Notes: generated by a model from the letters alone, not told the origin. Shown: positions 7,717 to 37,617, counted from the stretch's first letter. The stretch is 48,696 nucleotides of DNA from Psammoneis japonica (GCA_008632985.1 QPGO01000098.1:186001-234696), one strand, 5' to 3'. Numbers and translations are program-made.

Positions 7717-7957
7717 GATGGAGGGTTTTAATTTCGATCTGAAAGAACAAGGACAATTCATTGCGTGGAAGCGCCCCCAATCATCGACAGAGGCACAGCA
7801 GTATGGCAAGTCTCGCATTTTAAATCATTCACACAATTTTAGAAGTGGTCATCATAAACAGTCTTTTCCCTACACTATGATCAGGTCTTTGTATTTCACG
7901 TACAACCTTTGAATGCCAATTCGGAGGAGCGAGGGCTTGCAAATTCCATCAATCTTT

Positions 7958-9284
7958 CTACCACCTCCGCGGCCTGCAAGTTGTGACGGCCCCTGCAGTG
8001 AAACCGGACTTGGACGACAAGCCCAGGAAAATATCGCCAGTGGTTTCGTTGTAGGCAAACTTTGCTTGCACTCCAAATGTCACTTCGAGATCTGCAAAGG
8101 ATGACGCCGCGGCCCTTGAAAAGGCATCGGCGACCGCGCCTGAAGATGCTATTGCGTGTGAGTGTGCATCCTTGCAAAGGTCACGCGAATCCCAGGAGCA
8201 GAGCTTGGGATGATTCCTACTGCAATACCAATCGTGCCACTCCATGCAGCTGTTTAGCCAAGCTTTACCAATCGCAACGGTGGTCACATTGGCATAAGCA
8301 TCTTTAATACTAGTACTTCTGGGTCGAGTGAAGCTTGATGCCCCTTGAATCACCACGGCTTTGACGCTCTTGATACTCCTGCCCTTGGCTTCGACGCCTA
8401 AAGGAGGATACCTGCTCTCAAGTGCCCTGGAAAAGCTGGAAGCTGTGGTAACAGCGTCAGCAGTGCCGTATGCATCCACTTCTTCACCATCAGAACAAAT
8501 AACCTTGCGGTGCGGATGTCTGCGACTCATTCTCTTGCAAATCTTCTTTGGATCCGTCGAAGCACCAGCTTCCCCTTCTAAATAGGCGGCAGCTTTCGCG
8601 GAAGATCGGCTGTATGCTACAGACAGCTGACACTGTTGCAGACGCTCTCTGAAGTCAACGCGAGGGATTGGCCCGATCCGTCCTCTTTGTCTGATGGAAA
8701 GCTCGACTTCCGCATCAAGAAGGGCGCTCATTCTTGATGCGGCCCGAGCCGTAGACCAACAGGTGCTTCCAGCTGCAGCAAAAGCCATTGACGCATTTTC
8801 CGAATTGTTTTTATACAAATCCGCAATCTCGAAATTCTCAGAGAGGTACGCATTGCAAAACTCCATAGCATTGAAGCACATGTCTTGCTGCCGCAGCCAA
8901 TACCAGGTGCGAAATTTTAGCGTGTAGGCGATGATGCCTCGCGGGCCGGGTACGGCGGTGACTCCTGGTGGCAATGGCAGTCGCGCGTTTCTAGGCCTAG
9001 TACGACGTAAAGAGCGGTGGTTGTTATCTTCCTCCTCGAGAACGAAAACGCCACTTTGCTCTTCTTCGACTCCAGTTGGGTTGTCAAGCCGCACCTGACA
9101 GATAAGCAAGAAGAAATAGTGAAGTCATGAAATGCCGATGATGAACATGCATCAAGATCTAAGAATGGATTCTAATTCCACTCCACAAAAAAGCAGCACG
9201 TACCGAAGCGTTACTGTCTTCCGAGCCCGCTGTTACGATGATGTCGCAAATTGCCAAAAGGAAAGAAAGGGTTCTGACTCGCAT
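7958..9284 (-). CDS. Secreted Ala/Ser/Cys-rich protein of unknown function, paralog A; join complement(7958..9094,9204..9284)
   Basis: An 81-nt signal-peptide exon (MRVRTLSFLLAICDIIVTAGSEDSNAS), a GTACGT..CAG intron and a long exon. Clearly homologous to 24622..25907 with the same intron position. Confidence 0.8.
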
Positions 9285-9991
9285 GGTTCTCTCTTTTGAA
9301 GGAAAACGTTTTGGTTGCTTGTCTCGCTGCAGTAGTATGGTGGATAGAATTTGCTCTTCATTTTTTGAGGGAAACGAGAGCGAGGACAAAGCGCTATTGC
9401 GCCACAAGCAAGCATTCGCGGTTATTCTCCAGGTTTTCTTGTTATATGATCCAAAACACTTAAGGAAATTGATAATGTCCATGGTCATCTGCCTATTTTT
9501 CAAATAATGCATGTGTATTATATGTTGTATGTACGGTACAGTATTTCTGTATTGTTGCGGTGGAAATGACTTAAGCAGGGCCGTTCATCATAATCATCTT
9601 GTATCAAGGTCATCGTCATTTCTATCTTCGGGTCATTGTGAACCACACCAGCATGCACGCCGAGTGGCGGGATGGGATGATGACTGAAGCAGCTGTGCGT
9701 TCGCGCCGCAAAACACTGCACGATGACGAAAGCCTTAACGACAACGCCGACGGGGTTTACTCCCCCGTCAAGCAGCGCCTCGCTACACCTTCCGAAATGG
9801 GCTCCCAACCCTCCATTGCACAATGGCCCATTTTCTTTGCGATGCATCCTTTGCGTTGTTTTGGTTTTCACCATTTTCCTCATCATCCCCAACCTCAGCA
9901 CAGCTTCGTTGACCCTCTCTTCCTCATCCTCTCCACCTTTAAGTGCCAACCCTTTGCTTTCCTTCCTTTCTTCAACTGACTTTGAACAATG

Positions 9992-10125
9992 ACACAGCCC
10001 CACACCACCCCTTCCTGTCACCTCCAACAGCCCCGCCTCCCGAATTTCTCCGCCCCGCCATCAACACAGCCCCGCACCACCCCTTCCTGACACCTCCAAC
10101 AGCCCCGCCTCCCGAATTTCTCCAT
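9992..10125 (+). repeat. 72-bp tandem duplication
   Basis: acacagcccc(a/g)caccaccccttcctg..cacctccaacagccccgcctcccgaatttctcc occurs at ~9992 and ~10064. Confidence 0.8.
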
Positions 10126-12339
10126 CCCGTCTCCACCTCAACCATGCCAATGCCATCAGCAATTGCACTGGTTGCCAACTGTGTTGCTCTGCTGGATTGA
10201 AAGCCAGCAGTTTTCCCAAAACACACTCTTTGACCAGGCACCTGCTAGCTCTCTCTGCTGTTTGTTGCTTCGGCATGGACGAGTCATTCCTGGACCCGGG
10301 GTCATTTGATGACCTTTCTGATTGCTCCTCCAAACACAACCCTTCTGATGACTCCTGTGAGAGTGACCCTTCTGATGTTGATCAATCCAACGATCACAAC
10401 TGGACCACCACCCGCGTGGTTTCCTTCCTTCTTTCCCCTCGGTTTGTCCCACGAATGACAATGCCACCGCATGCTTCAATGCTCCAACAACCTTTGACTC
10501 CCAAAGTTGGTGTCAACAAGACTTCCCAAATCTCATCTCTCATCATCCCCTGCATTGGTCTTACTCCGATTTGGACTCACCAGACCTGACTTGGCATGAC
10601 ACCATTCTCCCACCGATCACCTTCCGCCCAAGTCCTCCACCTGCTCCCCATCTTCCTTCATTTGCAATCCTTCCTCTGCCACCCCATTTTGCCCATTTTC
10701 TCTTTGATCCTTTGGCTGCTCAATCCCCAAGCTTCCATCCTTTTGTTGCCCTCCTTGAGTCTGCCACTTTCTCCACCAACTTGGCATTGCCTCCAACCCA
10801 CCCTTTTTTCCTTTCCTTGCGATCGCCTGCGCCGTGGCCCCCGCATTTTCACACCATCACCAGACCCTGCCCTCCTCCTTCACAAGTGCTTCTGCGATGA
10901 GACAGCCTGTGGTGAACCTCCCCCCTCTTTCATCTGCCGAGTTCCCACATCCCTTCTTCACTTTGTTGGCAACTTTCTTCTCCACATCGACAACTGCCTT
11001 GACAACTCTTTGACTGGCATCCGCACTCTCGGTCAACCCTTTTTTTCTCCATCTCCGAGCGCACTCCACGCAACTCTCCCACCACCTGTTTCTCCAAACC
11101 AATCCCCTCCAACACCACAGACACCCCAATCACCAATGAAAACAGCACCTTGAGTCTGAAGCCCCCAAATGCAGGAAAGCCAATTTCAGGCAACAACTGA
11201 ACTCATCATTCCAGCTAAAGCAAACAAATGTCAAAACATCAATGTGGAGAGAACAAGATGACCTCCAGAAATTCCAGGGCAGCCCAGCAACAGTCAAGAA
11301 AATGCAAGCTCCAGCCACCCACCTGACAACCCCTGTGCACCAAATCTGTGGCTGTGGATGCAAAAAAGAGAAACAAGTGACAACTTTTAAGTCTGTGCAT
11401 CATGGGCAGACTTGGACATTGTGTTTTGGCATGAGTGTGCAGGCCCTCCACTTCTTCATGCTGTCGTGTGTTGTTGCGTGGCTGTGCAACAAGCCAGTTG
11501 TGGTGTCATGAGACAAAGGCAGCCCAGAAAACCCAGCAACCTGGCAAAAACATCTTGTGCAAAATTTGCACTGAAAGAGTCTGTCAATCAGAGCATGGCT
11601 TCAATCAGAGCATGACTTGGGGGTTGTGGCATCATTTTTTGGCACGGAAGTTGTGCCAGCAAAAACTGCAAACATGCTGACAGACAGACTCTTTGGCCAG
11701 CTTTGCAGATTGAAAAAACAACAATGAGACAAGCAACACAATGCAGAAAAGCACTCTGGGGAGTGAGTGTGGCTCATCATGGACAAGTGCCAAATGAGCA
11801 AGCAAAGCCTCCTCTGGTGGATGCTTTCAAGGGACAATGTTGTCAAAAAAGCTGGTCTGTGTGGTTGTTGTGTCAACACGACCAGCCAATGTTTCAGCCA
11901 CAAGCGCAGCAGCTCTCTCTGGAACAAGGAGAAAATGAAAGTTTTTCTGCAACCCCCCAGTCAAGGCTGCAATCCCAATGATGACCTCACCAAGCTTGCA
12001 GTGAAAGATGGGGAGGGCATTTGTTGCCAAAAAGTTGCCCATGTGTGCAGGCTTGGATGTGGAAAAAAGGGCTCATTTGACCCATCTGGAAAGGGTGGGA
12101 GTCATGTCACAGAGGAAGCAGCGCACCTTTTGCCAGTCAGTCATCACATGAGTTTGACAAAAACAAGCATCATCTTTGACATGTTGCCAACAGAATTGCT
12201 CCACAGTTTCTGCAATGACCAGCTTGCATCACTTTGATTTGGGGCTGCAGCACCCACATCAAGCACCTGCCATCAAATGTTGTGAGGACATTTGACTGAG
12301 TTTGTGGCAAGGATTGTTGGCATTTGCAAGCAATCTCAT

Positions 12340-13185
12340 GGATGTTTGCTTTGTTGTTGGACTCAAGCAGCACTCAGGCCCTGGCTGCATGTGTGAAAAC
12401 TGCTGTGGATGCCAGTCAAAGAGTCATCAATTGTTGGCAATGCACAGCACAGATCTGAGTGTGCTGTGGTGGCCACCAAGTGCTGCACACATTTGCTGTT
12501 GAGCCCAAGTGGCGCACCCTTTGAGAACACAAAACATGGGCAAAATCTCATCAGATGAGTTGGCTTGTGTTTGTTCAGTCTGCAATCCCATGGTGCATGC
12601 AACACAACATGTTTTGTGTGGTTTTGGCAACCACTCTGCAGGCACACCTGCACACTTGTCACCCACAAAACAAAGTGTGCATGCACCACTTTGAATCTCT
12701 GTGTGACAAATCTCCCATGACTGGCTTTCAGATGAAAATGTTTGTTGTGTTTTGCAAACCAACCATGCTGGCTTTGTTGCTGGACTCTCAAGCAGCACAC
12801 AGGCCATGGCTGCATGTGCTGACACTCCTGCTGTGAATGTCAGACAAAGAGCTGTTGATTGTCAACCATGCACTGCACAAATCTGAAGGCTGTGGCCACC
12901 AAGCACTGCTGCAACACAAGATCTTTTCCAGCACCAGGTGACATGCTCAACCACACATTTGATTTTGAGCCCAAAAGTGACACACTCTTTGACACAACAC
13001 AGAACATGGGCAAAAACTCATCAGATGAGTCAGTGTGCAATCACATGGTGCATGCAACATGACATGTTTTGTGTGGTGTTGGCAACAACTCTGCAGACAC
13101 ACCTGCACACTTGTCACTCACAAACAAAGTGTGCACGCATCACTTTGAATCCCTGTGTGACAAATCTTCCATGGCTGGCTTTAAG
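12340..13185 (+). repeat. Diverged ~430-470-bp tandem duplication
   Basis: Shared blocks such as aacatgggcaaaa.ctcatcagatgagt (~12533/~13003) and catgttttgtgtgg..ggcaac.actctgcag.cacacctgcacacttgtcac (~12608/~13063). Confidence 0.8.
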
Positions 13186-14899
13186 CTGCCTGAAATTGTC
13201 TGTTGTGTTGTGCCTTTTCCTCCTCTGTGCAATGGAAAATGAAGAAAAATCACATGTCAAATGATGCTGGTGACACATGGATGTGGTTTCATTGGTTTGT
13301 CAAAATCTTCACATTTAAACAAAAGCTTGTTTTGGCATGTGTTGAAAGAACATGTGACAGCAAGCAACAAAATGAGTTGACTGTGTTGTTGCAAGAAAGC
13401 TGACAAATGAACTGCTCAAGGCAGGGTTGGCGCCAAAAGACAAAGCTGGCTTTTGTGTGGTGGATGGGCTTTCAACCCACCGCACAATGAAGGAGGACCA
13501 AGGAGAAGCATGGCAAAAATGGTGAACACCTGGAAAGCTGCTTTTCAGACAATGGTGAAGCATTGTGGCTGACTGCAAAACCAGCCCAACTTGGGCAGCT
13601 GGTGCAACCACATCATTGCACCCAACCAACCCCAGCCAGCAAATTGTGCCACAAAGAAACAAGGAATGACTGGCTTTTGAGCACACAGTGCACTTCTGTG
13701 CCACCCAGCACAATTTGTCAATGATGTTGCATTTGATGCCAATCAACACACAAGCACCACACCATCAAGAAAGCACAGCTGACTTTCCAAATTTTGAAAG
13801 CAACATTTGGTTGGGGTTCCCTGGCCTGTGCAACAACCATGCCGCATGCTCTGGCACATGCTTTGAGCAAGGACAACAACCAAGGAACAAGCAGTGCACA
13901 AAAGGTGAGGGTCACCCACCCAAGTAAAAAGGCATCAACCTCTGTGTTGTTTTGCATGCTGGCATCCAAAGAATGGCAGTTGCTTTTGAGTGCTTTCACA
14001 AGCAAAGGTTTGTGGCTGTTGTCAGAGGAGTGACTCCATGCCCATGCCACAGATTTTTTTCTTTTCAAATCTGCCAATGACTTGCATGTCTCTCTGTGTG
14101 ACATGTTGCCAGCCAATTTGTGGTGCCCTGCATTCCCAAAGAGAAATCTGATCTTGAACTTCAACAAAGGCTTCAGCAAAAAGCAAAAATTTGACCTGGG
14201 TGCAGGTGAAGAGTTTGCAACTTGTTGCAACCACGCCCAAAAGCTGCAACACCAGATGCCTGCCTTCTGTCACAAATTTGCAAAATGAAAAAGGAGCTGC
14301 AGCTGTGGCAGAGAAGCAGCCAGTCAATCCAATGAAGAAGACAGATCACCATTTTTTGCCCAAATGGGGTCCAGCAGCACTGCCAACGAGAAGGGCTGGA
14401 GAGCTGGCAAAGATTTGAGTGCTGTGTCTGTGACAACCCATGCCATTGAAGCATGTGAACAAAAAGGTGTTGCAATGACCTCAATCTCTTCCAAGCTGAA
14501 AGCAGCTCTCTCCAGCTTTTAGCACCATTTGAGCCTGGTGTCTGTTTGTCCTTGAGGAGGCTGCCAGACTCAATCTCTGGCAGATGATGCTGACCCTGAC
14601 ATGTCAATGCTGTTCTGGCAGAGCACAAAAAAGGCAACTCACACAAACACACAATGCTGGTGACACACCTGGCCCTTCCTTTGTGGCAACCTTGGACAGA
14701 GGACCCCTCCTGTTGCAGTGAAATCAGTGCTTTGCTCAGAGGCAGAGCCAGGTGCACGCCTGTGGTCAGACTGTGCTTCAAGAATTTTTTTAGCCACCAT
14801 TGCCTGCTGGTGCTTTTTGTGATCTTGCTGCACTTTTTCCTTGAAGAGCAAATGATGAGACTGGGTGGGACCTTGGCAAGGGAGCATTGAGGTGCAATC

Positions 14900-15620
14900 C
14901 AATGAGAGCACAAATGTGTCAAAATGATCTGCAAAGACCAACCAAGCATCCTGTCAGCACAAAATCACAAGCAGTGTTTTAAAAAAAAAACAAGACATGC
15001 CAAAAGGTTGTGCCTGCTTCTTGTGAAGTGCCTCCACAGCAGCTCTGAACAAACCAGCTGCTTGTGTTCAGATTGCTCACAAGTGAAACAAAAATGGCAG
15101 GACAAGTCACATGCCAGCCAGTCAGAACCTGCTTGCCTCCAATGTCAATGCCCTGGCTGTGTCACTGCTTGTGTCATGCTGTTCTTGTTGACTCCATTGC
15201 AGAAAAGATGTGTCAGGAATGGACACGCTTGAGCAGTGGTGGTGGCAGAGAGCATTGAGACCAACACCCCCCTGAGACAATGATTGAAAACAGTGCTTGC
15301 GATGCAAAGCTGTTGGGATGGCACAGCACAAACATTTTGACAGCCACTCATCTTGCATCCCAGAGCACTCTGTCTTTCACACAACCAAGACTCTGTCTGA
15401 GAAACTGTGCGACACTCACATTGTCTGCAACCATCCAACAAACTGCCATTCCTCCATGTGCATCTCTTGCAAATGCTTTGCTGAAGCCAAGAAAAAGGCC
15501 AAGACTCAACTCTTCCTTGCTTGATCCACTGAAAGCACTGAAAGTCTGGCTCACATGCAGAGCAAGTGGACAAGCCCCCTGGGCTGGGCAGCAGGTTGAC
15601 ACTGGATTTTCACACAAATC
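14900..15620 (-). pseudogene. Possible relic of a non-LTR retrotransposon reverse transcriptase
   Basis: FLGFSKAF (~15490, cf. LDFSKAFD) is followed ~70 codons later by SQGGV(L) (~15270, cf. QGxxLS). No intact YADD. Confidence 0.3.
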
Positions 15621-18269
15621 TCAACAATGAGCATGGTGGAAGAATGTGATCCACAGGGAAAGGAGCTGTTTCAGCTGTTGCTGTGCCAATGCAGGTGTGA
15701 AACCATGTGTTTTGCAGAAATGGCTGTCGATTTTGGGGCCAATGCCATTGCACCACTGGGTCGCTCTCAAGAAGTTTCTTGATGTGCGCCAGTCTAAATG
15801 GAGACCAGACTCTGTGACAAAAGACACCTCTCTCTGTTTCAAAAACAAAGGATCCCATTGCAGAATTTTGACTTTGCACTGGTTGGCAAAAGATTGCCAA
15901 GATCATTGAGGAGATGAAGCTGCCAAATGCAATGGCAAAACTCTGGGCCACCCAACATTCAGTGGGTTTGAGGATGATCCAATGGTGAGAAGGGCCCTCA
16001 GCTCTCCCTTGCAGCTCTCCTTTTGGGACATGACATGTGTTCACACAAGGAGTTGGCAGATGCAGTCAAAAAAGCAGGGGGTTTGCTTGCAAGGAACTTG
16101 CAGAAGACTGGGAAAGAGCTGCACGCTGCACAAAGCTCTTCAAGAAGACTTTTTGGGTGTGGAAGGAGCAGCCTTCAATTCCAGCAATGTGGCGCCATGC
16201 CTGACAAAGGGCTTTTGCACAAAAAATGATTGATGATGGGTGCCAAAAGTGCTCAAGTGAGTCTTCCATTTCTCACTTTACCACATCAAAGATGAGAGTC
16301 ATTGCAGGAACCAGAAATTAATTGTGGCATGTGAAGGGTCCTCAGGACATGCTCAGGACATGACAGTTGCAATTTTCAGGGGGCAGAGCATGCACAGATG
16401 CATGCTGTGTGCAACAGCAAGCTGTTTCTGAATTGTTGTGTTGACAACAAGGAGGAGCTGTCCAATGGAGCAGAGCACAGGCTGCACACCTGAACTGCTT
16501 CAGAGGCACCACATTTGGTGCTGGTGAAAGCAGTGGAGGAAAAGGAGCCAGCAACCTTGATGAACAGGAAATGCACAACAACAACATTGCAATGAAAGAC
16601 AACCCAGCCTGTGCTGGGGGAGGGGTGAGGGGGGCATCACACCTTGAAGCATTGTTGCTCCACAAGGATGCCAAGGCTGGTTTGTTTCTTGATTTTAAGG
16701 ATGAAGTCAAAGGGTCAGCACATCCTCTGTTGCCAACACCCACACTTTCATGCTTCGAAGCCTCAGCTTGTTTGATTAAAAACTGTCAATGTGGGCAAGC
16801 TGGTGGAGCTCATTGCAGATGAAGACACACTGCTTGCTTTTTCCACAACTGTCATTGATGCTCTGACATCTCTGGCTAAACTCAAAATGCAAAAGTCAGG
16901 GGAGAAGCTTTGGCTGCACAAGCACACTCTTCCACAAAGTGCAATGGTCATGGCTGAAAAAGCCAGAGTTCTCACATGGATGATTGACTGTGTGTGCAAG
17001 AAAGGCACTCAACATGCAACCGACGCTGGCACTCCCAACATTTTGCTTGTTGGTGGAGCCATGACTCTTGCTGCTCACAAGGGCATGAAGAATGTAGTCT
17101 GATTTTAAGCAACAAAATTCTTGCTTTGATGAAATCAATGAAGCAGCGCTGGGGAGCCACAAAATTCACAAGGCTGCTGAGCTGGTTGCAACATCATGTC
17201 ACTGTCAGACTGGGTGTGTGGGTGAGAGTCTGCTTTGAATTTGGGAGATGACTGTTTTGCGTCTGTGTGTGCTGATTTGGTCATCATCCAGCCCAGAGAA
17301 GCCAGCTTCCATTTCAAATTGGTGGAACAATGTCATCTTTTGTCATTGCAAGCCTTCACAGCAGTTGCCTCAAAAAGAGAGAAGACACCAGCAGTCAAAC
17401 AAATGGTGTTGGAGACCAGCTGGTGCAGATGGAAGTTGTCCAGAGATGTGACAGAGGATTGTCAGTGGTGTCATGCAGAAACAATGCCAGATCTTGTGCA
17501 GGAAAACCAATGGGATCAGCAAACAGTTGGTGATCAAATGACACCAAAAAGGATGACTTGTGTTCTTGCTGGAAAGGGACACAGCAACAGAGGCAGCACT
17601 TGCACCCCAAAGAGTGAAGGACTTGATTGAACAGCAGAGAAAAGAAGCAGCATTCTTAAAGACCAACTGGCAAGGACAGAAGCAGTCCAGAGATGGGACA
17701 TGCAGATTGTCAGCAGTTTCTGCTGAACCACACAGAATTTGCACTGGAACCTGTGCAGAAAATTTTGAGATGACAGAAGATCACAAGAAATGACAACCAG
17801 CATGCAAACCATGCCGGCAAGGCTTCGACACCCATCATTTTCCAGCCACCAAAAAATGTTTTGCATCATGCTGAAACAAGGTTGCACCATTTGCAACTGT
17901 GGACGAAAGGGGCTTGTTGGAACTGACAAGACACCATCTGAGAAGGGCAACATTAGCACGAGAAGTTGCATGGAAATCCACTCACAATGTGCTGTGGGTG
18001 TGCAGAGCTGACATTGAAAAATGGGTGCTCCAGCGTCCAAAACATTTGTGAGCAATGTTGCTCAATTGATGAAGGCTTCAGGGCAGGTTCTGAGAACTTG
18101 ACAAAAAAATGAAAGCACCCCTGAATCTTGCCCCAAGTCCCCCTTTTGGCACTGTCATTCCTGGCATGCCCAAAGGGATGGCGCCGCCATGTCACACTCA
18201 ACAACAGCCTTGTCTTGGTGATCAAAACAACATCTGTGTCATTTGGCAAAGACTGTTTGAAGGGTCTGC

Positions 18270-18480
18270 ACTCAGAAAAGTGGACAGCAACAGTTGACAC
18301 TGTGGATGGATGCTCTAGTCAGAACAAGCTTGTGCACGCGCAATCTCCATGAGCAAATGACCCCACAGTGGGTTGCAGCTCCCCAAGTGCCAGTGGGTGC
18401 AACACATGGCAGATGCACCTAAAAATGCCATGTCGCAGCATCTGTCAAGGCAAGGACAGAAATGGACAGCAGCACCTTGC
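18270..18480 (+). pseudogene. Possible relic of a DDE DNA transposase (DGCxxQ(N/Y)K ... HGKxxxD type)
   Basis: VDGCSSQNK at ~18302-18328, then a frame-broken QGK..EMDS some 40 codons later. The spacing is compatible with this motif pair. Confidence 0.3.
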
Positions 18481-20451
18481 TTTTGTGCCAGAGCTGTCAT
18501 CAAAAGAGGAGCTTGGTTGCTGCTGATGGGTTTAGTTGGGCATCAGCAGAAGTGCTGCCAGCTCTTGTTTGTGTCAAGGGTGGGTGCTTGCTGTCATGAC
18601 CAATCTTTTGAGTTCTTCAGCCAAACACCTGCATTCTCTTGCAACTGTGCAACCCATTCCCAAAAAGAAACAGAGAAAGTGCAAACAAAGCCACTTCAAT
18701 GTTGCTCAAAGGGGATAAAAAAATGCTCCAGAATTTTTCACAAAACTCCAAACCAGCCATGTCTGAAGGAACTTTCATCCAGCTCAAGCAACCAACAACA
18801 AAAATTGCACCAAATCCAACTGTTCAAGCATCATGATTGCATGGGCCCAGGAAGCACACACAGTGCCAAAAGAGCCCAGGCACTGTGATGAAGAACACCC
18901 AGTGGAAACAAAAAAAGGAAATCCAAAGTCAACAAAGTGGTGGGGTAAAAAGCACATGCCTGTCAAAGGATTTGAAGCACCAAAACCAAATGTGTCTCAG
19001 AAAAGCTTTTGCTCACTTCCAGAAACTGATTCTGAAAGACCATCATGAAATGCTCTGCCACGATGCAGTCAATGCAAGTGTTTCAAAATCTGTCAAACAG
19101 CAGCCTGCGCAGCTTTTGTCATTGAACAGCATCTCTTGTTCATGCACAAATTCTCATTTGGCCATGCAATGGCATGCCAAAAGGGCTGAAAGAGGGAGCA
19201 CATGGTGCAGATTGTAAGATGTTGCAAAAGGTGTCAAAATGCTGGTTGAAGAAGGGGATGGGGTGCTGTTGTGAGCCACTGACTGGTGCCCGGTGCTGCG
19301 CGCGTCATGTGATGAGAGGATGCAAAGTTCCAGAAGAAGTGGCCGCTGACCAGCAATGTGCAACACATCTGGCACACACATGGGAGACCTGAACACTGGG
19401 GATGTGAATCAATCACTGCACAGTGTGTGTTGTGACCTTTGCTGGACCAAAGCTGGAGTTGCAGCACAGCTCTGCTCTGCAGCTGGATGTTTTTGGCCTT
19501 CATCTCATCACTGGCCATTTTGGCATTGACCAGCAGACTCAATTTACAAAGATGCTTGAGCCACAAAATTGTTTTGCTGAGAGTGACACACCTTTGCTGG
19601 AGGAGAGGGCACATCTGTGAAGCACATTTTGAGCACATTTGACAGAGGACATGCTGCTGCCGCTGTTTTGGAAGCAAAAAGCATGAGCAGGAGAGCAGCT
19701 GTGTCGCCAACCTGACAGAGGAGTTGACAAGCTTTCAGGGGTCAAAGTGCATCATTCAGCATGTTGTGTTGCTGCAACAAGATCAGGCAATGAGTGGGCT
19801 GTGAAGAAACAGCGCGCAAGCTGCCCTGGTCGGTTTCTCCGTCACGGCACACGAGAAACCAGCAGCGGAGCGTTGACTCAGCTGCCAACATCTGGGAGGC
19901 ACGGACTTTCCGAGTGAACTTCATGTGTGATGCATTTCAGCAAAGGCTTGCAGTGTGTCATGTCAAAATGGCACACAGATCTGTGCCACAGTTGAGTGGC
20001 TTATGTGCCATTGACAAACAATGTTTGAGTGGTTGCCTGCGCAGTGGCTGCAATGGGATGGTTAGCAAGCGATGTAAAAATCTCTGCAGAAATGAGAATT
20101 TGCATCGCCGGCCGGGTGCAAAAATTTTTCTGAAGACAGTTTGTTATTGTAAGCTAAAATAATCGCATTTCATCGGTCTTTTGCAAAAAATTCGGCCTCA
20201 GCTTCAACCAGAAATTTCAGCAGCGCATCGATGCAAAAAAAAATTTGGAGTCGCATCGATCCTATCTCCCTGCGCCGCAGTCGTTGACTGCTGATAACAA
20301 AGCTCCAGAACCTCATCATATGGCTCATACATCAAACTCCACTTCCACTTCTGTTGCTTCTGAAGTTATGCCCAATTCATTGAATACCTGGGAGAATTTG
20401 GCGCAAGATCCAGCCGACGACTGGATGCATCGACGCTGATTCAGACATGCT

Positions 20452-22150
20452 CAAGGTGTGAAAACAAAAGTTACCTCCTTAGAATGCTCTCATTCTGTAG
20501 ATGTTGTTATTGCCATTGATTGTGTCATAATTCCGAGTCATTGTAAAGCAACGGCTACTTGAGCAAACGCACCATGATTTTGGTGCGGAAACCAGCTGGC
20601 TAGAGAGTAGTTGCGAGGAGCCGCAGTTCTAGATCTACTCAATGTATGAAACAAAACTAACATCATTAGAAACCTCTCGTTCTGTAGATGATTTTATTGC
20701 TATTGATTGTGTCATAATTCCAAGTAGTTCTAAAGCAATGCACACTAGAGCAAAACGCACTGGGATTTGGGCGCGCAAATGCGGGGTTGGCATGATGTCT
20801 GGATGACAACACGGATCTGCTAGATGTATGGAAATAAAAGTATCATCATTAGAAAGCTTTCATTCTGTAGATGATGTTATTGCCATTGATTGTGTCATAA
20901 ATCCGAGTTATTCTAAAGCAACGCCCACCTGAGCAAAACGCACTACGATTTTGGCGCGGAAACCAGCTAGCCACAGCAGTTGCGGGTAGCCGCAGATCTG
21001 GATCTACTCAAGGTATGAAAACAAAACTAACACCATTAGAAAGCTCTCAATCTGTAGATGATGTTATTGCCATTGATTGTGTCATAAATCCGAGTTATAC
21101 TAAAGCAACGCCTGCCTGAGCAAAATGCACTCATGTGATTTGGGCGCGGAAACCAGCTAGCTAGCAGTTGCGGGTAGCCACAGATCTGGATCTACTCAAG
21201 GTATGAAAACAAAAATAACACCATTAGAAAGCTTTCGTTCTGTAGATGATGTTATTGCTATTGATTGTGTCATAAATCCGAGTCACACTAAAGCAACGCC
21301 TACTTGAGCAAAACGCATTGGGATTTTGGCGCGCAAGGGCATGTGCGGGGTTACGGGTAGCCGCAGATCTGGATCTACTCAAGGTATGAAAACAAAACTA
21401 ACACCATTAGAAAGCTCTCAATCTGTAGATGATGTTATTGCTATTGATTGTGTCATAAATCCGAGTTATACTAAAGCAACGCCTGCCTGAGCAAAATGCA
21501 CTCATGTGATTTGGGCGCGGAAACCAGCTAGCTAGCAGTTGCGGGTAGCCACAGATCTGGATCTACTCAAGGTATGAAAACAAAAACAACACCATTAGAA
21601 AGCTTTCGTTCTGTAGATGATGTTATTGCCGTTGATTGTGTCATAATTCTGAGTTGTTCTAAAGCAACGCCTACTTGAGCAAAACGCATTGTGGGATTTG
21701 GGCGTGCAAGGGCATGTGCGGGGTTACGGGCAGCCGCAGATCTGGATCTATTCAAGGCATGAAAACAAAACTAACACCATTAAAAAGCTCTTGTTCTGTA
21801 GATGATGTTATTGCCATTGATTGTGTCATAATTCCAAGTTGTTCTAAAGCAACGCCTGTTTGAGCAAAACCCATTGGGATTTGGGCGCACAGTCGCAAGT
21901 GGGGGTTACGGGCATCCTCAGATCTGGATCTACTCAAGGCATGAAAACAAAACTAACACCATTAGAAAGCTCTTGATCTCTAGAGGATGTTATTGCCATT
22001 GATTGTGTCATAATTCCAAGTTGTTCTAAAGCAACGCCTGTTTGAGCAAAACCCATTGGGATTTGGGCGCAAGGTCGCAAGTGGGGGTTGCAGGTAGCCG
22101 CGGATCTGGATCTACTCAAGGTATGAAAACAAAAGTAATGTCACTAGAAA
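20452..22150 (+). repeat. Tandem satellite, ~181-189-bp unit, ~9 copies
   Basis: The unit ggtatgaaaacaaaa..ccattagaaagct..tgtagatgatgttattgccattgattgtgtcataa..ggatctactcaa restarts at ~20455, 20644, 20825, 21012, 21200, 21383, 21571, 21757, 21938 and 22120. Confidence 0.95.
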
Positions 22151-22886
22151 GCCCTAATTCCGCTTAATGAATCTACACTGCAAATATCACCAACAAACGC
22201 AAAAACGAATTCATTCGGCATCACGCTATTTGCTGCAAAATAACACCCAAGCAAAAGGGATGAGAATGACAAGAACATGGCAGGACACAACAACACTTTC
22301 ACAGCATTCAATCAAGCATACAAGAATACATCATATTGCAGGTTTGTACCTTATGCAATGGAGTATATCCAAAACTGTATTGGCACGACACGTGCAGCAA
22401 CACGTCCGTGTTGTTTGTTGTGCTTCATGCCGCATCCCGCATCGAAGGTCGGAGGAGCGATCTAGGGCCCTACACGATTTTTGTACGTGGTCGTCGTACT
22501 GGAGATTTGTCTTTTTCAGCTGGAAAATTGCAGCGGCGTTGACGCTGCCACGCTTGCTAACACGTGGCTGCAACATAAATTTTCGCATCATCGCGCGCCG
22601 GCCGGCTGCGGAAAATTTCAACAAAAGGAATTTCTGCAGAGCGCTGCTAACCATCTCTAATGTCGCAGGGTGCGATTGCGGTAACGCGCAGTGTGACCTC
22701 CACTTCCTTCTACAGGTACACACACGAGGATCACTTAACACTTGCGTAGCGCATGCAAGGTCACTCTATTATCTAGAGACCTGGACCACCGCGGCCATCA
22801 TATCGGTACTTTGAATGTGTTGCCGCATGCGCCGGTACCTTGATCATTCAGCTGTTGTTGATTAGCAGAATACAACCCCTATCGAG

Positions 22887-24230: not shown

Positions 24231-24621
24231 TTTGCGAGTCAAGCTAACCCGTACCGGTACTATACCAGAGAGAGAGAGATTCAAAAAGATATTCTGCCCT
24301 CTGCTCATTGTCGCGCTTCAACAATTGACAAAGTCGGTTGCAGATAGTCATAATCTGCTTGCAATAGCACGCTGCATTGAAACGGTAAGTCCATAATACA
24401 ACGGAAGGCAATTGCTAAATGCTCACTTATTTGTTTTTTTCCTTCCCGTTTTATGTATTAGTATTGCAAATGACAGTCGATATACGTTTTGTCCAAGCCG
24501 ACTTCGTATGTTAACTTGCACTGCTAACGACTTACCTGTTTCAGTAACTTCCCCGTCACTACAATCGATGAAGATCCAATTCTGACGAAGCTCATCGCAT
24601 CCTAAAGTTCCATGATTCTTT

Positions 24622-25907
24622 CTACCACCTCCTGGGCTTACAAGTAGTGACGGCTCCTGCAGAGAAACCAGACTTGGTCGACAAGCCCAGGACAATCCTG
24701 CCAGAGATTGGGTCGCGGGCAAATCTTGCTTGCACTCCAAATGTCACTTCGAGGTCTGCCCATGAAGACGCCGCAGCCCTTGAAATGGCCATGGCGACCT
24801 CGCCGGAAGATGCTTTTGCGTGTGAGTGTGCATCCTTGCAAAGGTCACCCGAATTCCAGGAGCAAAACTTGGGATGATTCCTACGGCAATACCAACTGTG
24901 CCACTCCATGCAGCTACTAACCCAATCTTTATCAATCGCGATGGTGGTCACATTGGCGTAAGCATCGGCAATAGTTTCGGCTCGACTGAAGTTTGACGCC
25001 CCTTCAAGCACTACAGCTTTGACGCTGTCGACGCTCAAGCCCCTGGACTCGACATCTAAATAACGATACCATGTGCTATTAAGTGCCCTGGTAAAACTTG
25101 AAGCGTTGGAAGCAGCGTATGCAGTGCCGTATGCATCCACTTCACCGTCGGCACAGATAACCCTGTGAAGCGGATGTCTGGGACTGAATGTTCTGCACAT
25201 CTCCTTTGGATCCGTCGAAGCACCAGCTGTCCCTTTTATATAGGGAGGAAAAAAATCGACGAAAGATCGGCTGTATGCCACAGACAGCTGACACTGTCGT
25301 AGACGCCCTCTGAACTGGACTTGTTGGCTTCGTCCGATCTGTCGTTGTTTGACGGAAAGCTTGACTTCCGCATCAAGTAGGGCGTTCACTCTTGAAGCGG
25401 CCCGGGCCATAGACCAACAGGTGCCCCGAGCTGCGGCAAAAGACATGGCCGCATTTCCCGAATTGTTTTTATACAAATCCGCAATCTCAAGATTCTCGGA
25501 GAGGTAGGTATCGCAAAGCTCCATAACGTCCGCAACATTGAAGCACATATCTGGTGGGCGCAGCCAATACCAGATGCGAAGTTTTAGCGTGAAGGTGGTG
25601 ATACCTCGACTGTTGGTCACGGCGGTGACACCTGGTGGCAACGGCGGTCGCTTGGTAGGCCGACGACGTAACGAGCGATGGCTGTTTTCGTCCTCCTCGA
25701 TAATGAGAACGCCACTTTGTTCTTCGTCAAGCTGCACCTGAGTGAAATCATGAAACACCGATGATGAATACGCAACGATATTAAACAGGGGATTCTAATT
25801 CTAATCCACAAAAAAGCAACACGTACCGAGGTGTTGCTGTCTTCCGAGCCCGCTGTGACGATGTTGCCGCAAATTGCCAAAAGGAAAGCAAGGGTTACGG
25901 CACGCAT
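24622..25907 (-). CDS. Secreted Ala/Ser/Cys-rich protein of unknown function, paralog B; join complement(24622..25737,25827..25907)
   Basis: Signal-peptide exon MRAVTLAFLLAICGNIVTAGSEDSNTS, same intron position as paralog A, colinear protein ending in KPRRW. Confidence 0.8.
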
Positions 25908-26427
25908 GATTCTCTCTTTTGAAGGACAACGTTTTGGTTGCTTGTCTCGCTAAAATACAGTATGGTGAGTAGAATTTGCTCTTCATTTTTTGTGAGGGAT
26001 AATGAGGGAAACAGAGAGGACGAAGCTCTCTCCACGACGGAAGCACTTTCGCGGTTATTGTCAGCTCTCAGTTTTTGGTTTTTTTGGTTATGTGATCCAT
26101 ACACTTAAGGAATTGGTCATCCTCGTATATAATTACTTCCGTATTATTTTTAAGGCGCTAATGACTTATATATAGAGGGCAATAACCATATTATTTTGGT
26201 CATTATTCATTTTTATCATGCATACAGTATGTGACTAGTTTTTGTCATGGTCATTTCTAGTAGAGTCATTTGTCGCAGTCGTGTGACACGGCTGAAGCAG
26301 ACCCGGAAATCCACAGAAAAGCTATTTTGAGTTTTGGACCTGTTGCGCAGAGAGTTCAGTGGGATGTCTGCTTTTGTGAAATCAGTTTATTGATTTGGAT
26401 CTGGGATAAGTACGTACACATGTTAGA

Positions 26428-35570: not shown

Positions 35571-37124
35571 CCATGCAACAGCGCAAGTCGTCGTACCGGA
35601 TAACTGGTTATTCTTATCTAATCCACATTTCTTATATGCAAGTTTGGGCTAGTAGTGTCACTTTTTCTCTTGAGTGATGTGCGACCAATCTTGGACCTTT
35701 CTGGATCGACCGATCGTGAAGACGGGTGCGATTGATTCTTCGACAAATGCTACAAACGCGTTCATCGTGTTGTTCAATCAAGCAGCAGTGAGAGAAGATG
35801 CCGCTTATGCGCGTAACATTGTATTGCCGCGACCCGTGTCGCGTGAAAAGTAAAAATGGACAAGTAACTACCAATTTATTAAGACACGCCTCATCTTTGA
35901 ACTACGTCTTCTCTATAGTAGCATCATGTTTGTTGATGATACACTCTACGCAAAACGCACTGGTACGAAGTCCCAATTCCGCGACATGCGCCAAGTCGAC
36001 TAACCATTGCTTCCCAAGCAACGGACAGTTTGGGCAGGTCCAAGTCCTGGGTGAGGAGTCCCCCCTTGTCGATGCGCCCCAAAGACAACATCCATCATTT
36101 CAGGGTGCGGACTAAAGAATCGGTCCTTTTGGGTGAGACTTCCTCCTTGCTGCCAAGCACCAGCATCTCCCAGGTCGTTCCTGGAACAAGTGTGTTGCAT
36201 TTCTTCAAGCAAAACAGAGAAATGACTGCAAGTGTGAACCAAGGCTGTGCTGAGAAAACGATGAAAACAATCCCTGCACTGGGTCAAACAATGCTCTTCT
36301 GTGTCCAATGAAGCTGTCTTGCCCCCCTCGACTCAAGAGTGCTGCAACCACTGATCCAGCATTGATTCTCACAAATGAGGACCGCCTCCTCATGTTTCTG
36401 CATGCTGCACCAGACACAGCCACGTGGGGCATCCAGGGGAGGGAAGCCAACCAAAATCTCCTGCAACAACATTCCCACCAAGCATGCCACGCAACAACAA
36501 GCCCATCTGGTTGCCATCTTCAAACTCTTCAGGAAGCAAACTGCACTCCATGCACACATGTGAACCAAACAACCAGATTTGACACCAGAGCTGTGCTGTG
36601 ATGACCCCTCTGCATGGCAACAATGCACTCATGTGTGCAGAACAGGATCACCCTTGCTGACACCTGTGACCCAAGCCCAGCTTGAGCAACTCATGTGTCA
36701 GCAACAGCCAGTCTTCTGCAGCCCAAAAAAACTTGATCAAGCACCTGTGAATGCACGCTCTCAGGGTCAGGGTTGTTGGGGTCGGGGTTGGGATTTCGGG
36801 CATTGTTTGGTGAGAGTGTGTGTGTGTAAGAAGTTGTGTGGGTCACTCGCAAATGAGAAAGAGAGCTGTGCAGTGGCACAAGGTTCACAGTGGCGCACTT
36901 GTTTGGAAAGAGAGATTGTGTGATGACACATGATGGAGGTCAGGAATGCTGAGCTTGTCTTTGGAGTCAAAGAATGGCGCAACAATGAAAAGACAAACAA
37001 GCTCCATTGTGTCAACAAACTGCAAATTCATGAGGTTGTGGTCAGCTTTGAAGATTGTGCATCTGCGAAACTGTCCGAAACAACTGCTCGAATGTGAAAG
37101 TGTGCATGTTGTTTGTCCTCTGTT

Positions 37125-37262
37125 TTGAGCACATTTGCCACAAATGTGCTGAGCCAACTGGGTGCCCCTGGGCACAATGGTGACATGCTTGGCATGGATT
37201 GTGCAAAGGTTGGCATTTTCAAATGAGCCAACAAGACATGCTGCTCCAGAAGCTCCTTGTGC
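37125..37262 (-). pseudogene. Histone H3 C-terminal relic
   Basis: [38 protein letters not shown] aligns with H3 [37 protein letters not shown]. Confidence 0.85.
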
Positions 37263-37617
37263 AGGGGCTCTGACCGCTTTTCCCACAATGTGTGGCAGGC
37301 ATGGTGCAACACAATGGGTGCATCATTCTTTCCCATGAGCAATCAGCCAAAACACTTGATGCTGATCCGCTGTGCACCGACACTTTGCGCACACTTTTTT
37401 CTTGTCATTTTCTTGTGCTGGCACTTTGTGCAAACTTCTTTTTTCTCAGTTTCGTCTTGAACAAATGCAAAAGTTTTGACACCGCCATGTCCCCTGTCAA
37501 ACAACCTTGGTGCAAGAAGTCAGTCCTCTGTTTGACTCCAAACAACAATGCATCTTTTTGTTGATTTCACCATCTTGTTAAAGAGCTTGCCAAAGGAGTC
37601 TTTCAAAAGAGGGTGTT

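What the first reader, a model, noticed from the sequence alone, without database searches (positions are those of the whole stretch)
9950..20060. Region-targeted double dinucleotide erasure (CpG AND TpA -> TpG/CpA): candidate RIP-like genome-defence system
Seen: ~10 kb here, plus blocks at ~36.05-38.23 kb and ~46.13-48.70 kb, are almost devoid of both CG and TA and saturated in TG/CA, while neighbouring genes have normal composition. Established: CG->TG/CA is the footprint of 5mC deamination, and fungal RIP (C->T at CpA) CREATES TpA rather than removing it. Inference: removal of TpA needs a second process, A->G in a 5'-TA context on either strand (adenine deamination/editing, or a modified A/T mispairing), confined to silenced repeat DNA. 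I am not aware of a described eukaryotic pathway with this signature, but a literature check is needed.
Basis: partly seen in the sequence, partly recalled or inferred. Interest (0 to 1): 0.92.

Follow-up and report, generated by a model that had tools for sequence, protein, structure and literature searches.

The report
Diatom DNA blocks stripped of CG/TA
Three stretches of what is most likely a diatom chromosome have had almost every CG and TA step mutated to TG or CA. This looks like the end state of a locally targeted DNA-editing process that has so far been measured directly in only one alga outside the diatoms.

Summary
In the block cores TA is 31 against about 458 expected, and CG is 102 against about 679. 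TG plus CA rises to the level predicted if every CG and TA had been converted.

It is a mutational footprint. A histone H3 pseudogene, a decayed third copy of a local gene family and local duplicates all show CG and TA turned into TG/CA.

TA loss has sharp edges and always reaches at least as far as CG loss: 41 windows lack both, 15 lack TA only and none lack CG only. TA loss runs into the 3' part of a polyketide synthase gene, where the ketoreductase catalytic Tyr is now Cys.

The organism is most likely a diatom.

TpA-only, region-targeted A:T>G:C hypermutation was measured in Bigelowiella natans in a 2026 preprint, so the "second process" is not wholly undescribed. The new points are the diatom host, saturation, nesting with CpG loss and sparing of TTAA.

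Dependence on repeats (true RIP) is not supported. Read-level validation was not possible.

The parts
9941..20062 (.). Block 1. It is TA-free from just after the TA at 9,940 to the TAs at 20,002/20,063, with 27 TA in about 10.06 kb.
9941..11070 (.). Left margin of block 1. TA is erased (o/e 0.03-0.16) but CG is still about half normal (o/e 0.42-0.57). The stretch is C-rich and contains a 72-bp tandem duplication at 9,992-10,135.
11070..19800 (.). Core of block 1. Both CG and TA are erased. There is no recognisable protein domain in any of six read-through frames, and no second copy in the window.
12342..13195 (+). Local tandem duplication inside block 1 (12,342-12,740 and 12,765-13,195). The two copies differ by paired CA<->TG double differences at 5 sites.
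36002..37640 (.). Core of block 2, with both CG and TA erased. From 37,640 to 38,250 CG returns while TA stays low.
37122..37260 (-). Histone H3 pseudogene fragment (C-terminal part). It carries R>H/C/Q, Y>C and stop>Q changes.
   Evidence: Pfam Histone, E 3.8e-4; PDB H3, E 4.4e-10; codons.
38251..45996 (-). Type I polyketide synthase (KS-AT-DH-ER-KR-ACP) in three reading-frame pieces. Two 1-nt-type frame breaks (about 43.65-43.70 kb, inside AT, and about 39.74 kb) have no room for an intron. It is probably a decaying gene.
38500..40900 (-). 3' part of the PKS where TA is partly erased but CG is kept. At 39,735-40,610 TA o/e is 0.14 and CG o/e is 0.71. There is 1 Tyr in 541 residues (39,295-40,907), against 0-8 (mostly 2-5) per 150 residues in the rest of the gene.
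39966..39968 (-). TGC (Cys) codon at the position of the catalytic Tyr of the ketoreductase. The motif reads MCAAAN. It aligns to the Y of EryKR1 and of human fatty acid synthase.
46119..46990 (.). Margin of block 3, upstream of the PKS. TA is erased (o/e 0.11-0.18) and CG is largely kept (o/e 0.43-0.84).
46232..46684 (+). Local duplicate pair (46,232-46,347 and 46,569-46,684). They are 87% identical in four letters and 99% in purine/pyrimidine code. 14 of 15 differences are transitions, and 4 sites are CA<->TG doubles.
47000..48696 (.). Core of block 3, with both dinucleotides erased. It runs off the window end and holds an 88-N gap at 47,953-48,040.
47351..47813 (-). Copy C, a decayed third member of the local orphan gene family. 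It is 66-76% identical to A/B in four letters and 86-94% in purine/pyrimidine code.
7941..9467 (-). Copy A of the family (ORF 7,958-9,109). Its composition is normal, and it serves as the reference for polarity.
24605..26112 (-). Copy B of the family (ORF 24,622-25,758). Its composition is normal, and it is 78% identical to A.
20419..22160 (+). 187-bp tandem satellite abutting block 1, used as an internal control. It is highly repeated (units up to 98% alike) yet keeps normal TA (47-61 per kb) and has CG at 31-40 per kb (o/e 0.68-0.85).

Best explanation
The blocks are tracts of non-functional nuclear DNA in what is most likely a diatom. They include pseudogenes of host-type genes. Two context-specific transition processes, confined to discrete chromosomal domains, have driven them to saturation.

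Process 1 is TpA>TpG/CpA, an A:T>G:C change at the A of TpA on either strand. It has sharp domain edges, acts first or spreads furthest, and spares TTAA. It carries the same signature as the locus-restricted hypermutation measured de novo in Bigelowiella natans. I infer a DNA-level base-modifying activity recruited to a chromatin domain. The leading candidate is an adenine deaminase of the ADAT2/3 type. The alternative is oxidised thymine at TpA mispairing with G.

Process 2 is CpG>TpG/CpA. I infer that it is deamination of 5-methylcytosine in the same, presumably methylated, domains. It is slower, so it is nested inside the TA-free zone.

The domains creep. One has entered the 3' part of a polyketide synthase gene and converted its ketoreductase catalytic Tyr to Cys.

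Shown: the composition, the direction and context of the changes, the nesting and the sharp edges. Inferred: the enzymes, the methylation, the targeting signal and any defence role.
For: 1. Size of the effect. TA is 31 against 458 expected and CG is 102 against 679 expected. Converting every CG and TA of the window's normal DNA in silico gives TG+CA of 244 per kb and GC of 46.7%. The observed values are 232 per kb and 48.3%.

2. Direction, from copy C against sites where copies A and B agree. Of 16 CG sites, 9 are CA, 5 are TG and none are kept. Of 9 TA sites, 3 are CA, 2 are TG, 2 are CG and none are kept. Other dinucleotides are kept at 25-79%.

3. Context, per base. A>G is 8/14 at TpA, against 7/36, 4/36 and 6/35 after A, C and G. 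C>T is 12/28 at CpG, against 3/39, 1/32 and 3/21 at CpA, CpT and CpC.

4. H3 pseudogene (my codon reading). From the conserved Tyr to the stop codon, 16 positions are replaced. Seven fit CpG>TpG/CpA (five are R>H/C/Q), five fit TpA>TpG/CpA (Y>C, stop TAA>CAA, TTA>TCA and two codon-junction sites), three are other A:T>G:C changes and one is another G:C>A:T change.

5. Independent resolution in local duplicates. CA<->TG double differences occur at 4, 1 and 5 sites in three pairs. For the first pair, adjacent double differences number 6 against 1.8 expected by permutation (P 0.003).

6. Regionality. Edges are sharp to within about 100-300 bp. The abutting satellite and neighbouring genes are normal.

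7. Nesting. Of 190 windows, 41 are low in both, 15 are low in TA only (all at block margins or in the PKS 3' part), none are low in CG only and 134 are normal.

8. Extended specificity. 12 of the 31 surviving TA are TTAA, against 51 of 1,256 in normal DNA (P 1e-9). Survivors are 0 of 78 ATAT, 0 of 201 ATAC, 0 of 126 ATAG and 0 of 96 GTAC.

9. Collateral damage. The KR catalytic Tyr is Cys (TGC).

10. Precedent (Results and Discussion read in full). In B. natans, 230 of 231 single-nucleotide mutations in two regions were A>G or T>C, and all the A>G/T>C changes fell on TpA. The rate was about 6e-7 per site per generation, the larger (NCLDV) region was confirmed to be single copy, and the genome holds 124 TpA-depleted, CpA+TpG-enriched clusters.

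11. Diatoms methylate CpG in silent or transposon DNA through DNMT5a (abstract).
Against:
- No whole genome is held. Genome-wide extent, copy number of the blocks and the presence of deaminase, DNMT or TET/JBP genes are therefore unknown.
- Polarity rests on small samples (16 CG and 9 TA sites; about 16 H3 codons) and has no outgroup. It is inferred from composition and from the near-invariance of H3.
- A>G also occurs outside TpA (17 of 107; three H3 codons). The process may be broader than TpA, or ordinary decay may be superimposed.
- Methylation is not shown, and no de novo mutation is shown here.
- Unlike B. natans, no viral or foreign origin of the blocks could be shown. Six-frame Pfam found only the H3 fragment. 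A 263-aa ORF of the block had a single marginal hit among 1.84 billion representatives.
- Only 2 of 1,564 windows in 80 other DPM1-bearing contigs come near the signature. It is therefore not a general feature of diatom DNA in that sample.
- The PKS frame breaks could be assembly errors.
Confidence: 0.6

Rival explanations
1. A true RIP-like, homology-dependent system. Duplicated DNA is recognised by pairing and mutated, perhaps by the diatom DNMT4 enzymes that are related to fungal RID.
For: - Two of the three blocks contain decayed copies of multi-copy sequences: copy C of a three-member family and a histone H3 fragment.
- Diatoms carry RID-related DNMT4 enzymes of unknown function (passages of PMC9998398).
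Against: - The 10-kb block has no partner in the window in four-letter or purine/pyrimidine comparison.
- Copies A and B, 78% identical overall and 80-86% over 70-300-nt stretches, are untouched.
- A satellite with units up to 98% identical abuts block 1 and keeps 47-61 TA per kb.
- TA loss enters a PKS gene with no second copy in the window.
- In B. natans the larger mutating region was confirmed to be single copy.
- A cytosine methyltransferase or deaminase does not explain A>G.
- Partners elsewhere in the genome cannot be excluded, because no genome is held.
Confidence: 0.1
2. There is no dedicated system. These are old, neutral, heterochromatic tracts that have drifted to the equilibrium of a chromatin-dependent mutation or repair bias, for example poor repair of particular lesions in compacted, methylated DNA. 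There is no targeting or defence function.
For: - The composition is at or near saturation, as expected at equilibrium.
- The blocks carry pseudogenes and no recognisable genes.
- CpG decay in methylated DNA needs no special system.
Against: - No known passive process removes TpA to an o/e of 0.04. That implies a TpA rate tens of times the background rate.
- Edges are sharp.
- Sparing of TTAA looks like enzyme specificity.
- In B. natans the same signature is episodic and about 1000 times the background rate.
Confidence: 0.15
3. A sequencing, base-calling or polishing artefact. The true sequence has modified C at CpG and a modified base at TpA, and these are miscalled as transitions.
For: - Reads could not be checked.
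- A scaffold gap lies in block 3.
- CA<->TG discordance between duplicates would also arise from random miscalls.
Against: - Strand-specific miscalls at palindromic CG or TA should leave a mixture that includes correct CG/TA and swapped TA/CG calls, not near-total absence of both (inference).
- The blocks also carry indels, a deletion of about 220 bp in copy C, frame breaks and non-context substitutions, as real old pseudogenes do.
- Flanking long ORFs of up to 1,298 aa are intact, so the assembly is not generally error-prone.
- The same signature was called in B. natans from Illumina reads of mutation-accumulation lines.
Confidence: 0.07
4. Foreign DNA, such as an integrated virus or a transferred segment, that already lacked CG and TA, or DNA kept free of CG and TA by selection (avoidance of a nuclease or of an RNA sensor).
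For: - Edges are sharp and the block has no homologues.
- CpG and UpA suppression is known in viruses (search listing only: PMC3829696).
Against: - The H3 fragment and copy C descend from ordinary CG- and TA-containing host-type sequences.
- Duplicates resolved independently after duplication.
- TA loss grades into a resident PKS gene and destroys its active site, which selection would not do.
- No viral domain was found, and the gene family found no relative in the viral contig collection.
Confidence: 0.05

Closest known systems
Region-restricted TpA hypermutation in Bigelowiella natans (Mettrop et al., bioRxiv 10.64898/2026.01.13.699255). I read the abstract, the full Results and the full Discussion; I did not see the supplements.
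   Same: - Only TpA>TpG/CpA transitions, on both strands.
- The process is confined to discrete genomic tracts whose neighbours are normal.
- The long-term footprint is TpA depletion with CpA+TpG enrichment in clusters of windows.
- Affected DNA is often unannotatable.
- No dependence on repeats.
   Different: - The host here is most likely a diatom (Stramenopila), not a chlorarachniophyte (Rhizaria).
- The tracts here are saturated (TA o/e 0.04, against Rho 0.45 for the B. natans NCLDV region).
- CpG is erased as well; the preprint does not mention CpG.
- No viral origin is shown here.
- No de novo mutations were measured here.
- TTAA sparing and spread into a resident gene do not appear in the preprint's main text (the terms TTAA, flanking, trinucleotide and context each occur 0 times).
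Fungal repeat-induced point mutation (RIP). Its features are recalled from general knowledge; I saw only listings and abstracts of PMC2621366 and PMC7296669.
   Same: - Irreversible, regional, transition-only hypermutation that inactivates unwanted DNA and can leak into neighbouring genes.
- Diatoms have RID-related DNMT4.
   Different: - RIP is C>T, mostly at CpA. It creates TpA and lowers GC.
- Here TpA is destroyed by A>G and GC stays near 48%.
- RIP needs duplicated DNA. Here near-identical tandem repeats and two gene copies 78% identical are spared.
CpG decay by deamination of 5-methylcytosine in methylated transposons and silent DNA. This is recalled for vertebrates and many fungi. Diatom transposon methylation by DNMT5a comes from the abstract of PMC9998398.
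   Same: CG>TG/CA restricted to presumably methylated tracts, with products symmetric on both strands.
   Different: - CG o/e is as low as 0.04-0.1 over kilobases.
- The loss always lies inside a TA-free domain.
- Methylation is not shown here.
A-to-I editing enzymes with a 5'-U preference: ADAR and ADAT2/3, and DNA editing by amphioxus BjADAT2, as cited in the preprint's Discussion. The U33-A34 rule of tRNA substrates is recalled.
   Same: A>G with a T (U) immediately 5' of the edited A.
   Different: - These act on RNA, or on DNA only in special cases.
- No such enzyme could be looked for here.
- TTAA sparing and the full susceptibility of ATAT/ATAC/ATAG are not a known ADAR or ADAT preference.

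Membership tests
B. natans-type TpA-targeted local hypermutation | Substitutions are A>G/T>C at TpA (TpA>TpG/CpA). | tested here: met
   - none of 9 ancestral TA are kept; 5 became TG/CA and 2 became CG.
- A>G is 8/14 at TpA, against 17/107 elsewhere.
- Y>C, TAA>CAA and TTA>TCA in the H3 pseudogene.
- Some A>G changes also occur outside TpA.
B. natans-type TpA-targeted local hypermutation | Confined to discrete regions, with normal DNA next to them. | tested here: met
   TA boundaries lie at 9,941, about 20,002-20,063, 36,001 and 46,118. 134 of 190 windows are normal.
B. natans-type TpA-targeted local hypermutation | Elevated de novo rate measured in real time. | not testable with these tools
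   This needs mutation-accumulation or population resequencing.
B. natans-type TpA-targeted local hypermutation | Target DNA is of viral or foreign origin. | tested here: inconclusive
   - no viral or transposon domain in 18 read-through frames.
- one marginal hit.
- no viral-contig relative of the gene family.
- The blocks contain host-type pseudogenes.
- Saturation may have erased any recognisable signal.
Fungal RIP | C>T at CpA (or another CpN), creating TpA and AT-richness. | tested here: not met
   TA o/e is 0.04 and GC is 48.3% in the blocks, against 48.7% in normal DNA. C>T at CpA is 3/39.
Fungal RIP | Acts on duplicated sequence, recognised by homology. | tested here: not met
   - the 10-kb block has no partner in the window.
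- the satellite (units up to 98% alike) and the A/B copies are spared.
- Caveat: the rest of the genome was not available.
Fungal RIP | Depends on a RID/DNMT4-type enzyme and on the sexual cycle. | not testable with these tools
   No genome is held. Diatom DNMT4 exists in some species.
5mC-deamination CpG decay | CG>TG/CA with symmetric products. | tested here: met
   - 14 of 16 ancestral CG are now CA or TG.
- 12/28 at CpG, against 7/92 elsewhere.
- five R>H/C/Q changes.
5mC-deamination CpG decay | The tract is cytosine-methylated. | not testable with these tools
   No methylation data. Diatom transposon/CpG methylation is known only from the literature.
ADAR/ADAT-type adenine deamination | A deaminase of this family is present and acts on this DNA. 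| not testable with these tools
   There is no genome to search and no biochemistry. Only the 5'-T preference is consistent.

The most novel reading that the evidence does not exclude
Diatoms possess a chromatin-domain-targeted DNA editing system. It converts the A of TpA to G on both strands, with its own extended specificity: TTAA is spared and ATA/TAT are fully susceptible. It works together with CpG methylation to destroy silenced DNA irreversibly, and it creeps outward into neighbouring genes. Together with Bigelowiella, this would make TpA editing an old genome-immunity mechanism across the SAR supergroup, and a natural double-stranded-DNA adenine editor.
Probability: 0.35. Interest if true: 0.9.

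Novelty: new variant of a known kind. Interest (0 to 1): 0.72.

Why it matters
Locally targeted A:T>G:C hypermutation of nuclear DNA has been reported once, in a 2026 preprint on a rhizarian alga. Its enzyme is unknown.

A second, saturated example in a diatom would show that the process is not a curiosity of one species. It would supply end-state tracts from which the sequence specificity can be read, such as TTAA sparing. It would show that the process combines with CpG loss and can spread into a resident gene and kill it. It would also point to a genetically tractable group in which to find the enzyme, since diatoms have CRISPR tools and mutation-accumulation lines.

A natural TpA-specific DNA adenine editor would interest work on genome defence, mutation-rate evolution and base-editing technology.

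It also matters for annotation. Such tracts give long, Cys/His/Gln/Trp-rich false ORFs, because TAA and TAG stop codons are absent.

Tried and rejected
- **Whole genome.** None is held, so there was no genome-wide scan, no copy number and no deaminase search.
- **Origin of the erased DNA.** Six-frame read-through (stop codons as X) against Pfam gave 0 families in 17 of 18 frames; the only hit was the H3 fragment. A 263-aa ORF of block 1 searched against 1.84 billion representatives gave one marginal hit (E 6e-4).
- **Self-comparison.** Four-letter and purine/pyrimidine comparisons found no second copy of the 10-kb block and no long terminal repeats.
- **Orphan family A/B.** It had no Pfam hit, no PHROGs hit, no usable Atlas hit, no hit among 8,000 scored candidates of the 5.8-billion-protein set, and no relatives in metagenome contigs or viral contigs.
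- **Strand tracts.** The runs test of TG against CA order gave z = -0.83 in block 1 and -1.2 to +1.0 in the other blocks. These match normal DNA, so there is no sign of processive single-strand action.
- **Generality.** In 80 DPM1-bearing metagenome loci (420 kb), only 2 of 1,564 windows were marginal and none resembled the blocks.
- **KS search for taxonomy.** This was uninformative: the best named hits were actinobacteria and apicomplexans at 31-48% identity. The DPM1 search placed the window among diatoms.
- **Earlier scan notes.** There were none for this genome, and the word hits were phage CA/TG-free islands, the opposite signature and irrelevant here.
- **Literature.** Searches found no paper describing joint CpG and TpA erasure, and none describing TpA hypermutation in diatoms. 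One diatom transposon preprint (10.1101/2025.10.24.684338) had 0 occurrences of RIP, dinucleotide, CpG, deamination or methylat.
- **Rejected ideas.** An ADAR-edited retro-copy origin does not fit: the evidence points to in-situ action, the footprint grades into a resident gene, and ADAR is metazoan (recalled). Simple TG/CA microsatellites do not fit: the sequence is complex and the conversion model matches it.

Full report
**1. The observation**

- From about 9,941 to about 20,002, the window holds 27 TA where flanking DNA has about 37 per kb.
- CG falls to 0-8 per kb in the centre.
- TG and CA each rise to 100-133 per kb.
- The same holds at 36.0-37.6 kb and from 47.0 kb to the window end.

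In the pooled cores (12,121 nt), TA is 31 against 458 expected at the flank's observed/expected ratio. CG is 102 against 679 expected (Poisson P 4e-151 and 2e-168).

With one fixed criterion (TA o/e <0.2 and TG+CA o/e >1.4 in 500 bp), 54 of 190 windows qualify here. Only 2 of 1,564 qualify in 80 unrelated DPM1-bearing metagenome contigs, and only marginally.

I converted every CG and TA of the window's ordinary DNA to TG or CA in silico. This gave TG+CA of 244 per kb and GC of 46.7%, against 232 per kb and 48.3% observed. The two conversions therefore account for the bulk of the composition. A residual excess of GC steps and a deficit of AT steps is not explained by this model.

**2. The organism and the neighbourhood**

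The window carries these genes:
- a DDT/WSD chromatin protein;
- a TPR_12/TPR_10 protein;
- a GT2 dolichol-phosphate mannosyltransferase;
- a type I polyketide synthase, KS-AT-DH-ER-KR-ACP.

The mannosyltransferase is 74-84% identical to many proteins. All the named ones listed are from diatoms (Amphora, Nitzschia, Thalassiosira, Craspedostauros). The window is therefore most likely diatom nuclear DNA. The KS search was uninformative for taxonomy.

**3. It is a mutational footprint, and the direction can be read**

*Copy C.* A local orphan gene family has two normal copies: A at 7,941-9,467 and B at 24,605-26,112, 78% identical. A third, decayed copy C lies inside block 3.
- C is 66-76% identical to A/B in four letters but 86-94% in purine/pyrimidine code, so the differences are mostly transitions.
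- Where A and B agree, none of 16 CG survive in C (9 CA, 5 TG, 2 other). None of 9 TA survive (3 CA, 2 TG, 2 CG, 2 other). Other dinucleotides are kept at 25-79%.
- Per base and strand, A>G is 8/14 at TpA, against 7/36, 4/36 and 6/35 after A, C and G. C>T is 12/28 at CpG, against 3/39, 1/32 and 3/21 elsewhere.

*Histone H3 pseudogene.* Block 2 contains the C-terminal part of a histone H3 gene (Pfam E 3.8e-4; PDB H3 E 4.4e-10).
- I read its codons against the nearly invariant H3 sequence shown. From the conserved Tyr to the stop codon, 16 positions are replaced.
- Seven fit CpG>TpG/CpA, including five Arg>His/Cys/Gln.
- Five fit TpA>TpG/CpA: Tyr TAT>TGT, stop TAA>CAA, Leu TTA>TCA and two codon-junction sites.
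- Three are other A:T>G:C changes and one is another G:C>A:T change.
- The ancestral codons are inferred by parsimony.

*Local duplicates.* Duplicates inside the blocks differ by paired CA<->TG double differences at the same dinucleotide position: 4, 1 and 5 sites in three pairs.
- In the best pair, 14 of 15 differences are transitions.
- Adjacent double differences number 6 against 1.8 expected by permutation (P 0.003).
- This is what is expected if an ancestral CG or TA was resolved independently, one way or the other, in each copy. It places the process after the duplication.

**4. Anatomy: two nested footprints with sharp TA edges**

TA disappears abruptly, after the TA sites at 9,940, 36,001 and 46,118, and it returns at 20,002/20,063. 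CG declines gradually inside these limits.

Of the 190 windows, 41 are low in both, 15 are low in TA only, none are low in CG only and 134 are normal. All 15 TA-only windows lie at block margins (9.75-11.0, 19.5-20.0, 37.25-37.75, 46.25-47.0 kb) or in the 3' part of the PKS gene (38.5 and 39.5-40.0 kb). TA loss therefore either precedes CG loss or reaches further.

TG and CA products are interleaved with no strand tracts (runs-test z = -0.83 in block 1). At this resolution both strands are hit equally.

**5. Extended specificity**

The 31 TA that survive in the cores are not a random sample.
- 12 are TTAA, against 51 of 1,256 in normal DNA (P 1e-9).
- 28 contain TTA/TAA (P 9e-9).
- None of the expected ATAT, ATAC, ATAG or GTAC survive. 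Normal DNA, about 2.8 times as long, holds 78, 201, 126 and 96 of these.
- Surviving CG are enriched for GCGC (20 of 102 against 121 of 1,919, P 5e-6).

The numbers are small, but the TTAA sparing looks like enzyme specificity rather than passive decay.

**6. Spread into a gene**

The PKS (38,251-45,996, minus strand) lies between blocks 2 and 3.
- Its 5' two-thirds have ordinary TA (o/e 0.43-0.58). The stretch 39,735-40,610 has TA o/e 0.14 with CG o/e 0.71.
- From 39,295 to 40,907 there is 1 Tyr in 541 residues. The rest of the gene has 0-8 (mostly 2-5) per 150 residues.
- The ketoreductase active-site motif reads MCAAAN. The Cys (TGC, 39,966-39,968) aligns with the catalytic Tyr of EryKR1 and human fatty acid synthase.
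- The gene also has two frame breaks with no room for an intron: one inside the AT domain near 43.65-43.70 kb and one near 39.74 kb.

I read this as a gene that is decaying, with TA erasure advancing from its 3' end. The frame breaks could instead be assembly errors.

**7. What the process is not**

*Not repeat-induced, as far as the window shows.*
- The 10-kb block has no partner here.
- Copies A and B are spared.
- A 187-bp satellite with units up to 98% identical begins within 400 bp of block 1 and has 47-61 TA per kb.

*Not classical RIP chemistry.* RIP creates TpA; this feature is recalled from general knowledge.

*Not likely an artefact.*
- Strand-specific miscalls at palindromic sites should leave mixtures, including correct calls (inference).
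- The blocks show the indels, deletions and non-context changes of real old pseudogenes.
- Flanking ORFs of up to 1,298 aa are intact.
- I could not check reads, so I leave the artefact at about 7%.

*Not native viral composition or selection.* Host-type pseudogenes carry the changes, and an active site has been destroyed.

**8. Comparison with what is known**

Eight literature searches found one directly relevant paper: Mettrop et al., bioRxiv 10.64898/2026.01.13.699255. I read its abstract, full Results and full Discussion. Its supplements were not available to me.

In mutation-accumulation lines of Bigelowiella natans:
- Two integrated viral regions (186 kb and 25 kb) mutate at about 6e-7 per site per generation.
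- 230 of 231 changes are A>G or T>C, and all the A>G/T>C changes fall on TpA.
- The larger (NCLDV) region was confirmed to be single copy.
- Only some lines show the activity.
- The authors propose an ADAT2-like DNA adenine deaminase and an antiviral role.

The preprint does not mention CpG or diatoms. Its main text contains none of the terms TTAA, flanking, trinucleotide or context.

For the CpG half, diatoms are known to methylate silent and transposon DNA through DNMT5a. Many also carry RID-related DNMT4 enzymes of unknown function (PMC9998398, passages seen).

**9. Best explanation and its status**

The TA footprint here is the saturated end state of the kind of process seen live in Bigelowiella. 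It is combined with ordinary 5mC-driven CpG decay in the same domains.

Shown here:
- the composition;
- the direction and context of the changes;
- regionality;
- nesting of the two footprints;
- TTAA sparing;
- damage to the PKS.

Inferred:
- that the tracts are methylated or silenced;
- that an adenine deaminase, or alternatively oxidised thymine at TpA mispairing with G (an idea recalled from 5hmU/5fU chemistry, not tested), is responsible;
- how the domains are chosen;
- whether the process serves defence.

A viral or foreign origin of the targets, central to the Bigelowiella story, could not be shown here.

**10. Verdict**

The RIP analogy fails on homology dependence, and the claim of no precedent is overtaken by a 2026 preprint.
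- I rate this a new variant of a known kind. The differences are the lineage, saturation, coupling with CpG loss, sequence-context detail and spread into a gene.
- Interest is 0.72.
- The decisive missing pieces are read-level confirmation and a genome-wide scan.

Noticed in passing
window 28769-33049: Inverted repeats (83 nt, 100% complementary; about 129 nt at 88%) enclose a 4.1-kb stretch. It holds a 189-bp tandem array (about 28,970-29,940) and three ORFs of 158-325 aa with no Pfam or PHROGs hit. This may be a TIR-type mobile element. Its CG and TA content is normal, so it is not erased.
   Followed up: partly
window 20419-22160: A tandem satellite of about 183-188-bp units (9 or more copies, some 98% alike) starts within about 400 bp of the right edge of block 1. 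It is not erased.
   Followed up: partly
window 7958-9109 and 24622-25758 (both minus strand): A pair of orphan genes (383 and 378 aa, 69% identical) has no relative in Pfam, PHROGs, the Atlas, the 5.8-billion-protein set, metagenome contigs or viral contigs. The duplicated segment also includes about 360 bp upstream of the ORF.
   Followed up: yes
window 33687-35570 (+): A TPR_12/TPR_10 protein gene contains five 174-180-nt in-frame tandem repeats (about 33,790-34,720), some 96% identical. It is a repeat-rich gene that is not erased.
   Followed up: no
window 43650-43700 and 39735-39745 (minus strand): There are two reading-frame breaks in the polyketide synthase, with no space for an intron. 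The first lies inside the acyltransferase domain. They are either pseudogenisation or assembly indels.
   Followed up: partly
window 9950-20060: Because TAA and TAG are absent, the erased DNA gives many ORFs of 110-263 aa on both strands, rich in Cys, His, Gln and Trp. Gene callers could report these as proteins, although the 263-aa one has no real homologue.
   Followed up: partly
window 9992-10135: A C-rich 72-bp tandem duplication sits at the left edge of block 1, inside a strongly C-skewed stretch (GC skew about -0.45 from 9.9 to 11.4 kb). Its role, if any, in setting the domain edge is unknown.
   Followed up: no
window cores 11100-20000, 36030-37640, 47000-48696: Beyond the loss of CG and TA, GC steps are enriched (o/e 1.30 against 1.13) and AT steps are depleted (0.76 against 0.97). 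The simple conversion model does not reproduce this.
   Followed up: partly
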